From a phage, in the sequence record PZ445511.1: DNA of 64,000 nt, one strand, 5' to 3'. Numbering within the stretch: the first letter of the stretch is position 1; every line of letters begins with the position of its first letter. Under the pieces are notes generated by a model. That model did no database searches. It was not told the DNA's origin and saw nothing but the letters and a program-made list of their open reading frames with translations. Positions 10,661 to 63,210 of this stretch are shown here, piece by piece. The translations under genes and the position numbers were made by a program.

Positions 10661-10675
10661 ATTGGGAAAAAATAA

Positions 10676-13600
10676 ATGACTGATAAGCTAATACGAGAAC
10701 TACTTATAGATGTAAAGCAGAAAGGGGCAACCCGTACTGCAAAATCTATTGAGAACGTTTCCGATGCGTTAGAAAATGCTGCTGCCGCTTCCGAACTGAC
10801 TAATGAGCAGTTAGGAAAAATGCCCAAAACTCTTTACTCCATTGAGAGGGCGGCGGATAGAGCAGCTAAAAGTCTAACTAAAATGCAGGCTAGCAGAGGT
10901 ATGATGGGCATCACCAAATCTATGGATAGTATTGGTGCTAAGTTAGATGATCTTGCTATTGCTATGATCGAGGTATCTGATAAGCTAGAGTCTGGATTTA
11001 CACATGTTGGTAAATCTGTTAAGGCTATGGGTAACGATGTAGCTGCTGCAACTGAAAAAGTTCAAGATAGATTATATGATACTAACCGAGCACTAGGTAA
11101 TACTGCTAGAGGCTTTAATGATACAACTACCGCTGCAGGACGTGCTAGTCGTGCAATTGGTAATACTTCTGGTTCAGCACGTGGTGCAACTCGTGACTTC
11201 GCAGCTATGGCTAAAGTGGGTGGTGGTTTACCTCTTATGTACGCTGCTATCGCATCTAACGTGTTCGTTCTACAATCTGCATTCGAACAGCTTAAGATGG
11301 GTGACCAGTTAAACCGTCTTGAGAAGTTTGGTACTATTGTTGGTACTCAAACAGGTACTCCGGTACAAACGCTAGCTAGATCTCTACAAGAGGCTGCTGG
11401 TTATGCAATCTCCTTCGAAGAAGCAATGAGACAGGCATCCTCTGCTTCTGCATATGGATTCGATGCTGAACAACTTAATAAATTTGGTCTAGTAGCTCGT
11501 CGTGCTGCTGCTGTTCTTGGTGTTGATATGACTGATGCACTTAACCGTGTAATCAAGGGTGTATCTAAACAAGAAATCGAACTTCTGGACGAACTTGGTG
11601 TTACTATTCGTCTTAACGATGCTTATGCTGATTACGTTAAACAGCTAAATGCTGCTAACACAGGTATTACATATAACGTCAATAGTCTTTCTACTTTTCA
11701 GAAGCAACAAGCATATGCTAACGCAGTAATCGCTGAATCTACTAAACGTTTCGGCTACCTGGATGACGTACTTCGTGCAACTCCATGGGAACAGTTTGCT
11801 GCTAATGCTGATGCTGCATTGAGAAAGGTTCAACAGGCTGCTGCTAAGTATTTAGGGCCGGTAATTGATTCTATTAATGCAGTATTCTATACTTCTCAAG
11901 CATCTATCTCGGCTTCTGCTGCTAGAGCACAAGAAGAAACTAACCGTCAGATTGACCCAACTAACGTTGGTGCTGTAGCTTTAAGTCTTTCCGCTTCCGA
12001 GGAAGGATATAATAAAGCTCTTGATATGTATAAAGAATCTCTAGAAAAGCGTAATAAGTTAAAAGCTGATCTAGATAAGCGTATGGAACAGGCTGACTTC
12101 TTTACTGCAGGTGCAATTCGTTCTGTGGCTCAAGGTGTTCCGGTAAGTGCTGCGGCTCTTGGTGCTTCGGAGGAAAACAAGAAGTTCGTAGCTGAAACTG
12201 CGGCTATGGCACTCCAAGTAGAACGTTTGGATAAGGAAGTTACTGATTCAACCGATAACTTAGGTGCATGGAAATCTGCATATCAAGCTGCGGGTGCTGC
12301 GGCTGCTAAGGCTAATCCAGAATTTCAGAAGCAGATTAATCTGCAGAAGGATATGAATGACCCTGATGCGGTTTATGACTTTAACTCTGCGACTCTGAAA
12401 GGACTGACAGAACAGCAGAAAGCATATGATCAGGCTAAGAAAACTGCTAGTGATTTAGCTAACGATATCCAGAACATCGCTCAGAATACTAATACTGCGG
12501 CTAAAACTAGTGCATCCCTATCAGATACGATTAAAACTATTGAGTCTCTTTCTGCTGGTACTGGTAAAAATGCTGATGAATATGTTAAGAGTCTGAACTT
12601 AGGATATAATACTCTTAGTGAGATGAAGACTGCTTCACAAGCTCTTGCTGGTTACGTAAAATTAACTGGTAATGAGACTAAGAATCAGTTAGAAGTTCAG
12701 CAGAAGATTGCAGAAGTATACAACCAGACTAAGGACAAAGAGAAAGCACAGGAAGCTGGTAGACGTCTGGAAATCCAACAGTTAGAAGAACAGGAAGCAG
12801 CTCTTAAACGTGTCCTAGAAACTAACAAGGGTAATAAAGCAATCGAGAATGAAATAGCTAAGATTCAGTTAGAACGTATCAAAGTTACTAACCAGGGTAT
12901 GGAAGCCCAGAAGAAGGTTAAGGACTATACGGATAAGATTCTTGGTGTTGATCGTGAAATTGCTCTCCTGAATAACCGTACTATGACAGATACTCAGTAT
13001 CGTTTAGCTCAGTTGAACCTTGAACTGACTGTCGAGAAAGAGAAATACACATGGTATACTAAGCAAGCAGATAAGCAGAAAGAAGCAGAACAGTCAAGAC
13101 GTGCTCAGGCACAGATTGAACGTGAAATCTGGAAATTCCGTCAAGATCAGCAGATGGAAATGGCTTCTGGACGCGAAAGAGCTCTTAATATTTCACAGAC
13201 TAGCAGAAACGTTACTGGGGAATCTCAGAGACTAACTGAACAGCAAGCTCTGTACCAAAGTTTACTGGAAATTACAAAAGGAAATGCACAAGCTCAGGAA
13301 GAGTATAAGCGTAAAATCCAAGAAACTTCGGCAGCTCTAGCACAGCTTAAGATGCAACGCGATGCTCAGATGCAGCAGCAAGTCACTTCTTCTGTTGGTG
13401 GTGTTTACACTCCAACAACTGGACTGGAAGGAGATGATAAAGCAAATATGGATATGCAGAATAGAATGGCATCCTATGACCAGGCTATCTCTAAACTATC
13501 CGAGCTGAACTCTGAAGCAACTGCAGTGGCACAAAGTATGGGTAACCTAACTAATGCTATGATTCAGTTCTCTCAGGGATCTCTGGATACTACATCTTTA

Positions 13601-38908: not shown

Positions 38909-39880
38909 TTAGTCGTATACTCGCTCTACTATACAAGGGATTACACCACCAGCACGAATCACTCGAATCTGGCAACCGATCTCTAAATCGAGAGCGTTAA
39001 TATAATCAACGTTATTAAGAGTTGCTTTAACGATTGTGGCATCATCAATAATCACCGGTTCGAAATAACCAACTGGAGTTACTTTACCAGAAGCCCCTAC
39101 TTGCCATTCAACTTTAACAAGTGTGGTAATTTCGCCTTCTTCATCCTCTTTAATAGCAAATGCACCACGAGGAAATTTATTAGTCCAACCTTCACGGAAG
39201 AATTTATTGTTGTCGTTAATGCGAACAACTTTACCATCTGTCGGAATCCATTTAAAGAAGGAACGAACATTAACAACTGTCAAGAAGTTCTCATTCTCTA
39301 GCCAAAGCATATCTTTTAAATAGGCTTCTGTAATACCGACTGTTTCCGCTGAACACTGGATACCATATGCAACGAAGATTAAACCACCTTCACCAATACG
39401 TTGGATGAAATCATCGCTGTCTTTCAGGTTAATAGCACCCGAAGCGTAGTTACGTTTGTTCTCTACTTCTTTAGTAATTAGAACTTCACCAGTGATTTGA
39501 GTTGGTACTTTTTGGGAAATAGTTTTGGGGATGTTCAGCATTTTAACATTATGCGTTACATCATTCCCTAGAATACCGTTACCACGAGTTAACGCTTGAA
39601 CAAACTCACCATTAATATATAATAGAGAAATCGCACAACCATCTAACTTATCAGTTTCAACCTGACCAAGTGGGTTGAATGGAGCTTTATCACCACGATC
39701 GTAATAGACTTTCTGCAAAGAATACATACGATACAAATGAGGGATATCACCTTTCGGTCCGATTTCTTCCTCTAGTGGGAATCTTTTAATCAGACGATCA
39801 TATTCTTCGTCAGAGATTAAAGACATACCTTGATAATATGCTTCTTGACAGCGTTTAATAAATTCTTTTACATTAGTCAT
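38909..39880 (-). CDS. NAD-dependent DNA ligase, N-terminal part (adenylation + OB domains)
   Basis: KxDG adenylation motif (KLDGCAISLLY), LigA-type Ia N-terminus (EEYDRLI). Confidence 0.75.
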   Translation of the reverse strand: MTNVKEFIKRCQEAYYQGMSLISDEEYDRLIKRFPLEEEIGPKGDIPHLYRMYSLQKVYYDRGDKAPFNPLGQVETDKLDGCAISLLYINGEFVQALTRGNGILGNDVTHNVKMLNIPKTISQKVPTQITGEVLITKEVENKRNYASGAINLKDSDDFIQRIGEGGLIFVAYGIQCSAETVGITEAYLKDMLWLENENFLTVVNVRSFFKWIPTDGKVVRINDNNKFFREGWTNKFPRGAFAIKEDEEGEITTLVKVEWQVGASGKVTPVGYFEPVIIDDATIVKATLNNVDYINALDLEIGCQIRVIRAGGVIPCIVERVYD

Positions 39881-39970
39881 TTATTTATATCTCTCATCAA
39901 TTTATATAAATATTATATAACAAAACTGAGTCGAAAGCAAGTACATTTATAAAGAAAAAGCCAAGAATGC

Positions 39971-40276
39971 CTAGTTCTTGGCTTTGAGTTCTTCAGCTCG
40001 TTTCTGTACTTCATGCAATACCTCGGATTCACTGAGGATTTGCGTAAAAGCGTAAAATAGCTGTGATGTAGTTTCTAGGGTATAAGGAAAAGAGAAGCCG
40101 GATTTCGTTGGAAACCACTCTCCAGTAATATCTTGGAGCCAGTAACGAATTCCCATGTATAGATTCCCACGAAATTCAGATACGGTTAGTCTTACTTGTT
40201 CCCCCTCCTTCTCCCAAAGCATGATGGACTGGTCGTCAACGTGTCCTTCATAGTTTTGATTTACCTGATCGCTCAT
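39971..40276 (-). CDS. PC4-like ssDNA-binding protein
   Basis: RLTVSEFRGNLYMGIRYWL...PTKSGFSF matches the PC4/p15 fold signature. Confidence 0.5.
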   Translation of the reverse strand: MSDQVNQNYEGHVDDQSIMLWEKEGEQVRLTVSEFRGNLYMGIRYWLQDITGEWFPTKSGFSFPYTLETTSQLFYAFTQILSESEVLHEVQKRAEELKAKN

Positions 40277-45799: not shown

Positions 45800-46195
45800 T
45801 CAATCATCATTTAGACCTGGGACATAGATCCCAATGCGATTTAATTGACCTTTAGCTTCTTCGAGAATATCTTCGGTGTACTCCCAAATATCATCTTCTA
45901 CTTGCAAAAGATAAGGGGATTCACCAGTTTCGGGGTCACGTGTAATGGCTAAGCCACGTGGATGGAATATAGAGAAGTTGAGGGCAACAATCAAGCCCAT
46001 GCTGGACAATTCATTCCAGTCAGCTTCCCAACCATCATCTTCATCTTCGTCCACAAAGACACCTACACTAGGGTCTGTTACAGAAGTAAACGGAAATGTT
46101 ACACTAACCTTGTCAACCCCCAACCAACGTGCAAGGAGCCCCTCAGCACGCTCTACCAAACTAGGATCTATCTGACGCCAAAATACTTGTTCCAT
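45800..46195 (-). CDS. Hypothetical acidic protein (tandem paralog 1)
   Basis: 131 aa; shares W-ELxxMGL-xALN...TGE-P...PGL pattern with the adjacent 142-aa ORF. Confidence 0.5.
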   Translation of the reverse strand: MEQVFWRQIDPSLVERAEGLLARWLGVDKVSVTFPFTSVTDPSVGVFVDEDEDDGWEADWNELSSMGLIVALNFSIFHPRGLAITRDPETGESPYLLQVEDDIWEYTEDILEEAKGQLNRIGIYVPGLNDD

Positions 46196-46204
46196 TCTGC
46201 CTCC

Positions 46205-46633
46205 TTAAGCAGTTAAACCTGGGATCATATACCCGAAACGACGAAGTTTCTGAATCCCCTCATTTACTTCCTCGGGCGAATATGACCAGCCCTCACTTTC
46301 ATTTACCTGGAAAGCAGGAGCTTCACCAGTGCGATAATTTACAATAAGACGGTGATTTGCAGGCATAAACAGCTTATGGTTCAAGGCAAAAACCAGACCC
46401 ATTTCATCGAGTTCTTTCCAGTCTACAATCTCTTCTACTCCCTCCCCTAAATCCACGCTAACTCCAATACACGGAGCTTCCTCTAGTGGGCCTTTAAAAG
46501 ACAGGAAGATATCGTTATTCTCACACCAAATCTTAAGCAGATTGATGGTTTCATTGTACATACCATTAGGGAGAGAACGCCAGAAGTTGAGGAGCATAGG
46601 ATTTACCTCTTTCATGAAAATATTATTGAACAT
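46205..46633 (-). CDS. Hypothetical protein (tandem paralog 2)
   Basis: 142 aa; paralog of 45800-46195. Confidence 0.5.
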   Translation of the reverse strand: MFNNIFMKEVNPMLLNFWRSLPNGMYNETINLLKIWCENNDIFLSFKGPLEEAPCIGVSVDLGEGVEEIVDWKELDEMGLVFALNHKLFMPANHRLIVNYRTGEAPAFQVNESEGWSYSPEEVNEGIQKLRRFGYMIPGLTA

Positions 46634-46635
46634 GC

Positions 46636-47176
46636 TTATACCTTAAGTTTCTGAAGAGCCTTACACATTTCAAGATCTGGACTAAATTCCAGCATATAGC
46701 TTATAGCATTTAAATCTTGAAGGTTTATTCCAGTCCTGCCATTTACAATAACAGTAGGAAATTGGTACATCATAGCACCAGCATCATCTAGGACACACCA
46801 ATGCTTGAGCTTATATTTTTTCGACGAAACGTAAAACAGAATTACCCCGAGATAAACCACCTCCAGTAAAATCTGTTGTACCAAGGAAACGATCGATCAA
46901 ACCGAGCCCGGTCATAATCTGAACGTTCTCCATCTCATTTCGTACAGAAAACCATGAAGATACCCCAACAATCATTATTGGGGATGGCTTAAGAAAGTTC
47001 TGAAAAGCCTGGAGTAATGGCTTGTAAACCCAATCACCACCAAAGAATAGCTTCTCACTATCTGGAGCATGATGGTGAGAGATGCTCGAATTGAGCACCC
47101 CATCAATATCCAGGAAAATCACAGGAGTATTACTTATTTCCACCAGTAGCATCCCACGTCCAGACTTTAACTTCAT
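46636..47176 (-). pseudogene. HAD-superfamily phosphatase (nucleotidase-like) split by an apparent frameshift at an A6 run
   Basis: N-terminal ORF has HAD motif I (IFLDIDGVLN); downstream ORF in another frame has a DD motif (CVLDDAG); the frames join at GAAAAAATA (about 46814-46822). Confidence 0.45.
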
Positions 47177-47296
47177 CAGTAAAAGGAACTGGAACCTTCA
47201 ATTCACCCTTACCCCCACATAACAGATAGGAACAGAGAATAAATGGTAATCATACCGATTAGGTTGACAAACCGTACTAGACCTTTCCAGATACCC

Positions 47297-47479
47297 TTAA
47301 AAATCTTCTTCACCATATTCTCCCTCCTTAATAAGGAACTCTTTCCATTCTGCTGTATCCTCATAGATAACGCAGAAATCATCACTCTTCCATGAGAAGT
47401 CATCAGTAGCAAATTCAAAACGGTAGCACCAACTACCGTCTGGCCATACTAAAAGATCACACATGCTTTTCTGGGACAT
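47297..47479 (-). CDS. Small hypothetical protein, translationally coupled to the Sir2-like gene
   Basis: GGAGGG RBS and ATG embedded in the last codons of the Sir2-like ORF; 60 aa. Confidence 0.35.
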   Translation of the reverse strand: MSQKSMCDLLVWPDGSWCYRFEFATDDFSWKSDDFCVIYEDTAEWKEFLIKEGEYGEEDF

Positions 47480-48308
47480 AAATATTTCCCTCCATAAAAG
47501 CTTCAACTTGATCAATAAAGTGTTTATTACCAAAAACTTCGGCAGCTCCAGCACGCCATACAGTAACACCACGTTTCTCATATTCAAGCTGTTCATCATA
47601 GCGAACTTGAGGGTTAACAACCATCATCTTAGTTCCACGACATACAGCAGGGAATAGTTCCCAGTTGAAGTCAATCACTTGGTTGCTACAACCTACTACA
47701 ATAACCATATCATTGCTAGTAAGTGTATCAAACAGGTTAATCTGACCCATATACCACGGAGCCGTCTCACCAAAGAATGTTACGTTTGGTTTTACCCATT
47801 CGTAATCTTCAGGAACAATTGCAGTGTATCCAACATCTTCGATGATTTGATTGCGACCCCGACGATAGATCACCTCTTTCAAGTACCCGTGAGCGTGAAT
47901 GATTTCATCACGAGGGATACCAGCACGTTCCAGAAGGTCATCAACGTTAGTAGTGAAGTTCTTCACGCTATCCGCACCATAACGCTGGAACCATTCTGCA
48001 ATTCGCAGATGGGCAATGTTAGGCTCAACAGTCTGTAATTCCTGACGACGCATGTTGTAGAACTCATGAGTCTTGAGATACAGATCGTTACCCTCTTCAT
48101 CAATGCCAGGGAAACGAGCACTGAAGTAGTTAGGATCATCTTCACCACAGAAGCGACGGAAGCCAGCTTCAAAGTTAGGCAAGCTACATACTTCCTCTAG
48201 ATCGTACTCATCCCACAAAGATTTTCCACTAGCAGTATCAGTACGGAAAGCACGAACACCACTATCAACACTTAAACCAGCACCACTAACAATGATTAGT
48301 CTACGCAT
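47457..48308 (-). CDS. Sir2-like (sirtuin family) NAD-dependent protein
   Basis: GAGLSVDSGVRAFR, TTNVDDL, HG, PNVTFFGE sirtuin motifs; no CxxC...CxxC zinc module. Confidence 0.7.
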   Translation of the reverse strand: MRRLIIVSGAGLSVDSGVRAFRTDTASGKSLWDEYDLEEVCSLPNFEAGFRRFCGEDDPNYFSARFPGIDEEGNDLYLKTHEFYNMRRQELQTVEPNIAHLRIAEWFQRYGADSVKNFTTNVDDLLERAGIPRDEIIHAHGYLKEVIYRRGRNQIIEDVGYTAIVPEDYEWVKPNVTFFGETAPWYMGQINLFDTLTSNDMVIVVGCSNQVIDFNWELFPAVCRGTKMMVVNPQVRYDEQLEYEKRGVTVWRAGAAEVFGNKHFIDQVEAFMEGNIYVPEKHV

Positions 48309-62946: not shown

Positions 62947-63210
62947 ATGATTTTTCATATTCTTATTGATGATGTGCGTAACCTTCATGGAATGGACATT
63001 ATAATTCGAACCCCCGAAGCCGCTGTTGAGTTTCTGAATAAAACCGATACCACAGGTCATTTCGTTTATATGGATAACGATCTGGCTGTAGATGATATGG
63101 AAGGTTATCAAATTCTTCGTTTACTCCTAGAATTTGGTCAGAGACCCAAGAAAGTGGTACTAGTAACCTCGAACCCTTCGTCTAAGAGACCATGCGTAAT
63201 GATCTCTTAG
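62947..63210 (+). CDS. Hypothetical protein
   Basis: 87-aa ORF after an early promoter. Confidence 0.4.
   Translation: MIFHILIDDVRNLHGMDIIIRTPEAAVEFLNKTDTTGHFVYMDNDLAVDDMEGYQILRLLLEFGQRPKKVVLVTSNPSSKRPCVMIS

What the first reader, a model, noticed from the sequence alone, without database searches (positions are those of the whole stretch)
46636..47176. HAD-type phosphatase gene split by a frameshift at an A6 run
ORF 46811-47176 carries the HAD catalytic motif I (IFLDIDGVLN) at its N-terminus and stops at 46811. An overlapping ORF in another frame (46636-46884) continues with a plausible HAD C-terminal segment (CVLDDAG...). The two frames meet at GTCGAAAAAATATAA; a single-A indel would fuse them into a ~182-aa HAD nucleotidase-like protein. 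It is either a pseudogene, a homopolymer sequencing error, or low-level slippage.
Basis: seen in the sequence. Interest (0 to 1): 0.5.

Follow-up and report, generated by a model that had tools for sequence, protein, structure and literature searches.

The report
Frameshift-broken HAD phosphatase gene, T5-like phage
A small accessory phosphatase gene of a T5-like Salmonella phage is cut in two by one extra A in a run of A's; hundreds of related phages have it intact, so it is an ordinary recent knock-out mutation or a sequencing error, not a new mechanism.

Summary
On the minus strand, ORF 46811-47176 (HAD motifs I-III) and the +1-frame ORF 46636-46884 (motif IV, DD) meet at an A6 run (46816-46821). 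Removing one A gives a 179-aa protein (171 aa from the usual start) that matches Pfam HAD_SAK_2 end to end (E 8e-18) and is 100% identical to intact proteins of several Epseptimavirus phages. The window is a T5-like phage, about 99% identical to Salmonella phages polluks and S147, and the gene is the ortholog of T5.105. About 440 phage records, 19/19 T5-like IMG/VR contigs and 15/15 other assemblies carry one uninterrupted gene with A5. The shift is therefore not a conserved recoding site, and there is no stimulatory RNA structure, nearby Shine-Dalgarno-like element or Rfam match. The A6 state is not unique: phages misterkot (Denmark) and PMBT26 (Germany) have it on a different haplotype. Four other relatives carry different lesions in the same gene, and DT57C has deleted it, so the gene is dispensable and repeatedly lost. 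The window also has two other private frame-breaking changes (47212-47216; 63176-63184). Without reads I cannot separate a genuine slippage mutation (about 0.5) from a homopolymer miscall (about 0.4). Interest is low.

The parts
46811..47176 (-). N-terminal fragment of the T5.105-type HAD_SAK_2 phosphatase gene. It is 121 aa from the ATG at 47176, or 113 aa from the ATG at 47152. It carries motifs I-III and ends ...VEK-I-TAA (stop at 46811-46813).
   Evidence: The exact 113-aa product also exists as misterkot_66.
47096..47110 (-). HAD motif I codons, D-I-D-G-V (nucleophile Asp and Asp+2).
   Evidence: These residues are invariant in a 22-sequence family alignment.
46816..46821 (-). The A6 homopolymer (T6 on the + strand), which is the frameshift site. 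Relatives have A5.
46636..46815 (-). C-terminal 59 codons plus the stop of the same gene, now in the +1 frame (YKLKHWCVLDDAG...KLKV*). As an open frame it extends upstream to the TTG at 46884.
   Evidence: It is identical to the C-termini of intact orthologs.
46783..46788 (-). HAD motif IV codons (Asp-Asp), stranded downstream of the frameshift.
   Evidence: D122/D123 are invariant in alignment A2.
47209..47316 (-). The adjacent upstream small gene (T5.104 ortholog, phrog_11166). A second private +1 insertion, G5 at 47212-47216 where relatives have G4, cuts it to 35 aa. In relatives it is 61 aa and overlaps the HAD start.
47457..48308 (-). Context: the Sir2-family gene (T5.102 ortholog), in the same early gene block as the HAD gene.
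45800..46633 (-). Context: two tandem DUF7415 paralogs (T5.106/T5.107 orthologs). The first ATG (46633) lies 2 nt after the normal HAD stop, which suggests translational coupling that the frameshift would break.
   Evidence: The coupling is inferred.

Best explanation
This is one gene, the ortholog of phage T5 gene T5.105, and it encodes a small cap-less HAD-superfamily phosphatase (Pfam HAD_SAK_2). It carries a one-base expansion of a coding A5 run to A6. I take this to be a genuine, recent replication-slippage mutation. It shifts the frame after Lys120, adds one Ile and stops. The product is a 113/121-aa fragment with motifs I-III. It lacks the strand that carries the motif IV Asp-Asp (the Mg2+ ligands) and the C-terminal third, so it should be catalytically dead. 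The remaining 59 codons are left untranslated, and the abutting DUF7415 gene is probably uncoupled from upstream translation. The gene is a dispensable accessory early gene that T5-like phages lose repeatedly, so a null allele is tolerated. What is shown: single-gene identity, the site and direction of the indel, intactness in relatives, and recurrence of lesions. What is inferred: that the extra A exists in the phage DNA, that the fragment is inactive, and the polar effect on the downstream gene.
Against: No reads are available. The window also has two further private frame-breaking changes in conserved genes (47212-47216 and 63176-63184) and a private A5->A6 in an intergenic run (10667-10672). 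All three clean homopolymer changes are +1 expansions. Polluks versus S147 show no isolated coding frameshift over the same 64 kb. That pattern also fits an assembly with homopolymer and local consensus errors. Apart from the extra A, the gene encodes a protein 100% identical to intact orthologs. So the event is very recent or not real.
Confidence: 0.5

Rival explanations
1. Sequencing or assembly artefact. The phage really has A5 and an intact, functional HAD gene. The extra A, like the extra G at 47212-47216 and the patch at 63176-63184, is a consensus error in this particular genome record.
For: The window has three private frame-disrupting differences plus one intergenic homopolymer +1, relative to all five closest genomes (99.2-99.4% identical). 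None has an exact 28-mer match in 50,697 phage records. All the homopolymer changes are expansions. Two of the hits lie 400 nt apart in overlapping genes. The remainder of the gene is perfectly conserved. Nanopore-only assemblies do exist in this genus, for example KKP_3822 (PMC11641169).
Against: The window has 175 runs of 5 or more bases. An error landing on exactly the run that is genuinely A6 in misterkot and PMBT26 would be a coincidence of roughly 1-2%. Private substitutions show a clean purifying-selection signature, 386 synonymous to 101 non-synonymous. Only 3-4 indel anomalies in 64 kb is few for an error-prone platform. The gene is demonstrably dispensable elsewhere.
Confidence: 0.4
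2. Functional recoding. The A6 allele still yields some full-length enzyme, either by +1 ribosomal slippage of tRNA-Lys on A-AAA-AAU-A or by transcriptional slippage on the A6/T6 run. In the ribosomal case AAA re-pairs with AAA while the least-used Ile codon AUA, followed by UAA, waits in the A site.
For: A +1 shift at the Lys codon would reproduce exactly the wild-type sequence ...VEK-YKLKH. ATA is the least-used Ile codon in the window's long ORFs, at 8.0 per 1000 against 36.0 and 23.5. A stop follows immediately. The allele persists in at least one natural lineage.
Against: The site is not conserved as a shift site: relatives read straight through A5 in frame. There is no downstream structure (z -0.84), no Rfam hit, and no Shine-Dalgarno-like element within about 10 nt upstream. 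From general knowledge, runs of 6 A/T give negligible RNA-polymerase slippage in E. coli, where runs of about 9 or more are needed. Other relatives break the gene at different places and by a nonsense codon, which fits loss rather than regulation.
Confidence: 0.05
3. Two genuine separate genes, or a split enzyme whose halves are made independently and reassemble.
For: Misterkot, PMBT26 and NG_S8 are annotated with separate small CDSs here.
Against: No start codon with a ribosome-binding site lies upstream of the motif IV codons in the downstream frame. The only ATG-initiated piece (MMYQFP...) begins after the DD motif. In misterkot and PMBT26 the +1 frame has a stop just before KKYKLKH. More than 95% of homologs, and all distant homologs, are single polypeptides of 150-185 aa.
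Confidence: 0.02

Closest known systems
Phage T5 gene T5.105 (YP_006933.1) and its orthologs in Demerecviridae (e.g. polluks_70, S147 orf51, EH4_00122)
   Same: It occupies the same position in the early block Sir2(T5.102)-T5.103-T5.104-HAD-DUF7415 x2 (T5.106/107). Protein identity is 86-100% once one A is removed.
   Different: Here the reading frame is broken at A6, whereas the orthologs are uninterrupted at 168-180 aa. RefSeq mislabels T5.105 and many of its orthologs 'Sir2 (NAD-dependent deacetylase)'.
Pfam PF18143 HAD_SAK_2 (HAD domain of 'Swiss Army Knife' RNA repair proteins)
   Same: The match is full-length and above the gathering score. The motif I DxDGV, the SS of motif II and the DD of motif IV are all conserved.
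   Different: This is a stand-alone single-domain phage protein, not a domain of a multidomain repair protein. No RNA ligase or kinase partner was seen next to it. Its substrate is unknown, and no solved relative is detectable by sequence.
Cap-less (C0) HAD phosphatases: MDP-1 (1u7o/1u7p), Scp1/FCP (1t9z), PNKP phosphatase domain (1yj5, 3zvl)
   Different: Sequence identity is only 12-16% and TM-score about 0.5. This shows fold-level kinship only and does not establish substrate specificity.
The A6 frameshift allele in Salmonella phages misterkot (MT074453.1, misterkot_66) and PMBT26 (PP926508.1)
   Same: They show the same A5->A6 expansion at the same codon, and misterkot has the identical 113-aa truncated product.
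   Different: The surrounding haplotype differs: GTA-GAAAAAA versus GTC-GAAAAAA, with 27 differences over 1255 nt. The closest A5 relatives of each differ as well, which suggests independent origin or a very short conversion tract. In those two phages the neighbouring small gene is intact.
Programmed +1 frameshift sites (e.g. prfB) and transcriptional-slippage genes
   Same: There is a homopolymer or slippery codon immediately before an in-frame stop.
   Different: The shift is not conserved and there is no upstream Shine-Dalgarno-like stimulator. The run is too short for efficient RNA-polymerase slippage. The ancestral state is an ordinary in-frame gene.

Membership tests
HAD superfamily / Pfam HAD_SAK_2 (PF18143) | Profile HMM match above the curated gathering score | tested here: met
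   The conceptually fused protein scores 65.5 bits against a 27.5-bit cut-off and covers model positions 1-138 of 139. The N-fragment as encoded scores 43.3 bits. The C-fragment alone scores 14 bits, below the cut-off.
HAD superfamily / Pfam HAD_SAK_2 (PF18143) | Motif I DxDx(T/V) with a nucleophile Asp at the end of strand 1 | tested here: met
   FLDIDGVLN lies at 47096-47110 and is invariant in 22 family members.
HAD superfamily / Pfam HAD_SAK_2 (PF18143) | Motif II Ser/Thr and motif III Lys/Arg | tested here: inconclusive
   VGVSSWF (S65/S66) and R102 are invariant or nearly so. I assigned them to motifs II and III by position only, without checking against a superposed active site.
HAD superfamily / Pfam HAD_SAK_2 (PF18143) | Motif IV acidic pair in the same polypeptide as motif I | tested here: not met
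   The DD codons (46783-46788) are present but lie in the +1 frame, downstream of the stop of the motif I ORF. The feature is met in all intact orthologs.
HAD superfamily / Pfam HAD_SAK_2 (PF18143) | Rossmannoid HAD fold | tested here: met
HAD superfamily / Pfam HAD_SAK_2 (PF18143) | Mg2+-dependent phosphatase activity and a defined substrate | not testable with these tools
   No experimental data were found. Searches for T5.105, misterkot and PMBT26 returned no relevant papers.
T5.105 ortholog group (Demerecviridae early region) | Conserved synteny and high identity | tested here: met
   The order Sir2, two small ORFs, HAD, then two DUF7415 genes is the same as in T5, polluks, S147 and EH4. 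Protein identity is 86-100%.
Programmed ribosomal frameshift / transcriptional slippage site | Shifted arrangement conserved among homologs | tested here: not met
   About 440 records and all 34 other contigs examined carry A5 and a single frame. Only misterkot and PMBT26 share A6.
Programmed ribosomal frameshift / transcriptional slippage site | Stimulatory element (Shine-Dalgarno-like sequence or RNA structure), or a run long enough for RNA-polymerase slippage | tested here: not met
   The downstream 100 nt fold with z -0.84. There was no Rfam hit at E <= 1. No GGAGG-like sequence lies within 10 nt upstream. The run is only 6 nt.
   Pfam at E <= 1 returned only HAD_SAK_2. NCBIfam returned nothing. 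The PHROG match is to a family of unknown function.

The most novel reading that the evidence does not exclude
The short homopolymers inside the T5.105-type HAD gene (A5, G4, T3) may act as recurrent loss-of-function hot spots under selection. T5-like phages would then repeatedly switch this phosphatase off, and sometimes the whole Sir2-HAD block as in DT57C. The reason could be that on some hosts the protein is costly or is sensed by a defence system. The A5/A6 run would then behave like a contingency locus. The window's simultaneous lesions in HAD_SAK_2 and in a cREC_REC 'cyclic-phosphate processing' gene would reflect co-loss of one RNA-end-processing pathway.
Probability: 0.1. Interest if true: 0.45.

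Novelty: new member of a known kind. Interest (0 to 1): 0.15.

Why it matters
It matters mainly for annotation. The two ORFs should be annotated as one disrupted gene (a T5.105-type HAD_SAK_2 phosphatase), not as two hypothetical proteins. The widespread RefSeq/PHROG label 'Sir2 (NAD-dependent deacetylase)' for this gene is wrong. Biologically, the finding adds evidence that the Sir2-HAD early block of T5-like phages is dispensable and often lost. That is useful when choosing candidate accessory or counter-defence genes to test. It does not reveal a new mechanism.

Tried and rejected
(1) I searched for the A6 allele by exact pattern in IMG/VR, metagenome contigs and GTDB genomes, and by an exact 40-mer in the phage collection. 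All gave 0 hits. This first suggested a unique allele. It was misleading, because the 28-mer seeds are broken by flanking SNPs in misterkot and PMBT26, and those genomes are not in the scanned pattern collections. The exact-protein look-up and a tblastn with the out-of-frame leader found them.

(2) I tried to identify the window's own record through exact look-ups of its proteins. It is not in the collections, so no sequencing-platform information could be obtained.

I used a 91%-identical intact ortholog instead.

(4) A profile search against PDB sequences gave nothing significant.

(5) I looked for guilt by association in distant homologs. Sir2 lies within 2.5 kb in only 3 of 60 distant loci, and DUF7415 in none. 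That is too weak to assign a pathway.

(6) Literature searches for T5.105, misterkot, PMBT26 and the SAK RNA-repair paper found nothing usable. KKP_3822 is not the window.

(7) I rejected the split-enzyme idea for lack of a start codon upstream of motif IV in the downstream frame.

Full report
**1. What is in the sequence**

On the minus strand, ORF 46811-47176 encodes 121 aa. It carries IFLDIDGVLN near its N-terminus and ends ...LRFVEKI-TAA. A second ORF in the +1 frame (46636-46884) reads ...SSKK-YKLKHWCVLDDAG...KLKV. The frames meet at GTCGAAAAAATATAA, and the A6 run is T6 at 46816-46821 on the + strand. Deleting one A gives a continuous protein of 179 aa, or 171 aa from the ATG at 47152 that most annotations of relatives use.

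**2. It is one gene**

- The fused protein matches Pfam PF18143 (HAD_SAK_2) over model positions 1-138 of 139, with 65.5 bits and E 8e-18.
- The N-fragment covers model positions 1-99 and the C-fragment covers 95-138. These are two contiguous pieces of one domain.
- PHROGs gives a full-length match to phrog_1818, a family of unknown function.
- In an alignment of 20-22 family members, the invariant residues are motif I (FLDIDGVLN), the SS-W-F of motif II, GG..R, and the motif IV pair D122/D123.
- Motif IV lies downstream of the frameshift, at 46783-46788.
- An AlphaFold2 model of a 91%-identical intact ortholog is confident (pLDDT 94.6, pTM 0.91).
- The frameshift falls at the end of helix 100-113, just before strand 118-122 that carries the Asp-Asp pair.
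- As written, the product therefore lacks an essential catalytic motif and about a third of the fold. Its inactivity is an inference.

**3. Where the window comes from, and what relatives look like**

The window is a T5-like phage (Demerecviridae, Epseptimavirus). It is about 99% identical to Salmonella phages polluks, S147, RA40, PMBT36 and vaffelhjerte. The gene is the ortholog of T5.105. It sits in the conserved early block Sir2 (T5.102), T5.103, T5.104, HAD (T5.105), then two DUF7415 genes (T5.106/107). In T5 this block is annotated with a promoter upstream and a terminator downstream.

The evidence that relatives have an intact gene is as follows:
- tblastn with the fused protein hits 467 phage records. 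Of these, 440 cover at least 80% of the query, and every sampled full-length row is a single uninterrupted piece of 537 nt or fewer. Six or more are 100% identical at protein level.
- Polluks_70, S147 orf51 and EH4_00122 are single CDSs.
- All 19 T5-like IMG/VR contigs have the gene intact.
- All 15 NCBI/Logan/ENA contigs that encode a DUF7415 or Sir2 protein identical to the window's have it intact.
- Direct alignment shows that the window has one extra base at this run (A6 versus A5) relative to every one of them.

**4. The twist: the allele is not unique, and the gene is often broken**

Exact-sequence look-up showed that the 113-aa truncated product exists in GenBank as misterkot_66. The window is not misterkot: identity is 96.8% over 4.5 kb. 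Yet misterkot has the same A6.

I then ran tblastn with the downstream ORF including its out-of-frame leader. This picks out genomes in which that frame is contiguous. It found misterkot, PMBT26 and NG_S8, plus an odd three-piece match in MET_P1-88. Inspection gave the following (and for SHSML-45):

| Phage | Origin | Lesion in the HAD gene |
|---|---|---|
| PMBT26 | Germany | A6, same as the window |
| misterkot | Denmark | A6, same as the window |
| NG_S8 | Japan | A5, but G4->G5 28 nt upstream |
| MET_P1-88 | Turkey | T3->T2 60 nt downstream |
| SP_Thor | China | TGG->TAG six codons downstream |
| DT57C | not recorded | most of Sir2 through HAD deleted, leaving a fused remnant |
| SHSML-45 | not recorded | retains only the C-terminal part |

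PMBT26 and misterkot differ from each other by 4 of 1255 nt. They differ from the window by 27. The nearest neighbours of each are A5 genomes. The window differs from them at two positions within 6 nt of the run. So A6 is a genuine heritable state in at least one lineage sequenced twice independently. The window's A6 sits on another haplotype, which points to independent origin or a very short conversion tract. Overall the gene is dispensable and recurrently lost. I could not establish whether it is lost more often than its neighbours.

**5. Genuine mutation or artefact in this window?**

No reads are available and the window's own record is absent from every collection I could query.

Points that favour an artefact:
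- The window has other private anomalies relative to all close relatives.
- One is a G4->G5 expansion with an adjacent SNP at 47208-47216. It truncates the overlapping T5.104-like gene from 61 aa to 35 aa.
- One is a scrambled patch with a net loss of one base at 63176-63184. It changes the C-terminus of a cREC_REC-domain protein (87 aa versus 105 aa).
- One is an intergenic A5->A6 at 10667-10672.
- Polluks and S147 show no isolated coding frameshift between each other over the same 64 kb.
- All three clean homopolymer changes in the window are +1 expansions.

Points that favour a real allele:
- The window has 175 runs of 5 or more bases, so an error landing on exactly the run that is truly A6 elsewhere would be a coincidence of about 1-2%.
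- The 557 window-private substitutions are 79% synonymous among those in long ORFs, so base-level quality is sound.
- The gene is clearly tolerated as a null allele in other phages.

I weigh these at about 0.5 genuine and 0.4 artefact.

**6. Recoding and split-gene rivals**

A +1 slip of tRNA-Lys (AAA to AAA), with the least-used Ile codon AUA and then UAA following, would regenerate the exact wild-type sequence. Several points count against this:
- The shifted arrangement is not conserved.
- The ancestral state is an ordinary in-frame A5.
- The downstream 100 nt show no unusual structure (z -0.84).
- There was no Rfam match.
- No Shine-Dalgarno-like element lies close upstream.
- From general knowledge, a 6-nt run is too short for efficient RNA-polymerase slippage.

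At best this would be low-level leakiness (about 0.05).

Independent expression of a C-terminal half that contains motif IV is unlikely. No plausible start codon precedes the DD codons, and misterkot and PMBT26 even have a stop in that frame just before KKYKLKH.

**7. Likely consequences (inferred)**

The HAD stop (46636-46638) lies 2 nt from the ATG of the first DUF7415 gene (46633). In relatives, the T5.104-like gene overlaps the HAD start by 23 nt. Both arrangements suggest translational coupling. The two frameshifts would break this coupling and may lower expression of the downstream genes.

**8. Verdict**

It is an ordinary case: a homopolymer frameshift, either a recent null allele or a miscall, in a dispensable accessory gene of a well-sampled phage group. 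Its practical value is for annotation. The two ORFs should be merged into one disrupted HAD_SAK_2 gene, and the propagated 'Sir2' label on T5.105 orthologs should be corrected. The only mildly interesting possibility is selected, recurrent inactivation of this gene across T5-like phages. My data do not exclude it and do not demonstrate it.

Noticed in passing
window 47208-47216 (small gene 47209-47316, minus strand): There is a second private +1 insertion here: G5 on the minus strand where relatives have G4, with an adjacent private SNP. It truncates the T5.104-like small protein (phrog_11166) to 35 aa, against 61 aa in relatives. In relatives its 3' end overlaps the HAD start. The 40-mer spanning the site has no match in 50,697 phage records.
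   Followed up: partly
window 62947-63210 (patch at 63176-63184): The gene for a cREC_REC 'cyclic-phosphate processing receiver' domain protein (PF20274) has a private scrambled patch with a net loss of one base. The protein is 87 aa with a different C-terminus, against 105 aa in polluks_95 and S147 orf76. Like HAD_SAK_2, this Pfam family's name links it to phosphate-end processing, so both lesions may touch related functions. The coincidence is unexplained.
   Followed up: partly
window 10667-10672: A private A5->A6 expansion lies in the intergenic stretch GGGAAAAAATAAATG, immediately upstream of the start of the large pore-forming tail tip protein gene (polluks_34, labelled tape-measure protein in S147). 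It changes the spacing between the ribosome-binding site and the ATG by one base.
   Followed up: no
window ~23309 and ~23463: Two intergenic poly-A tracts (A9 and A13) are longer than in polluks (A8, A7) and S147 (A6, A9). These tracts are hypervariable.
   Followed up: no
window 39961-39983: The terminator-like hairpin GCCAAGAA-TGCCTAG-TTCTTGGC has its 7-nt loop as the exact reverse complement of the loop in polluks and S147 (CTAGGCA). This is a hairpin-loop inversion, a template-switch type of mutation.
   Followed up: partly
window 39880-39891: A roughly 200-nt segment that holds a small gene (polluks_60, VOG7040), next to the NAD-dependent DNA ligase subunit A gene, is absent from the window.
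   Followed up: no
window 12097-12158: There is a net 27-nt in-frame deletion, with a small rearranged patch, in the pore-forming tail tip protein gene (polluks_34; tape-measure protein in S147) relative to polluks and S147.
   Followed up: no
T5 NC_005859.1 T5.105 (L012 7589-8095) and many RefSeq Demerecviridae records; phrog_18062: The HAD gene is widely annotated 'Sir2 (NAD-dependent deacetylase)', yet it has no Sir2 similarity. phrog_18062 carries the same label and is a 92-residue profile that matches only the C-terminal part (residues 80-171) of the HAD protein. The misannotation appears to have propagated from the neighbouring true Sir2 gene.
   Followed up: partly
L011 (DT57C NC_027356.1 46493-46765); L010 (SP_Thor); L015 (NG_S8); L016 (MET_P1-88): These are independent lesions of the same gene in other T5-like phages. 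DT57C has a Sir2-to-HAD deletion that leaves a 90-aa fusion remnant. SP_Thor has TGG->TAG. NG_S8 has G4->G5. MET_P1-88 has T3->T2.
   Followed up: yes
window 45800-46633: Two tandem paralogous DUF7415 genes (131 and 142 aa; phrog_2502) sit directly downstream of the HAD gene. They are conserved in all T5-like relatives and their function is unknown.
   Followed up: no
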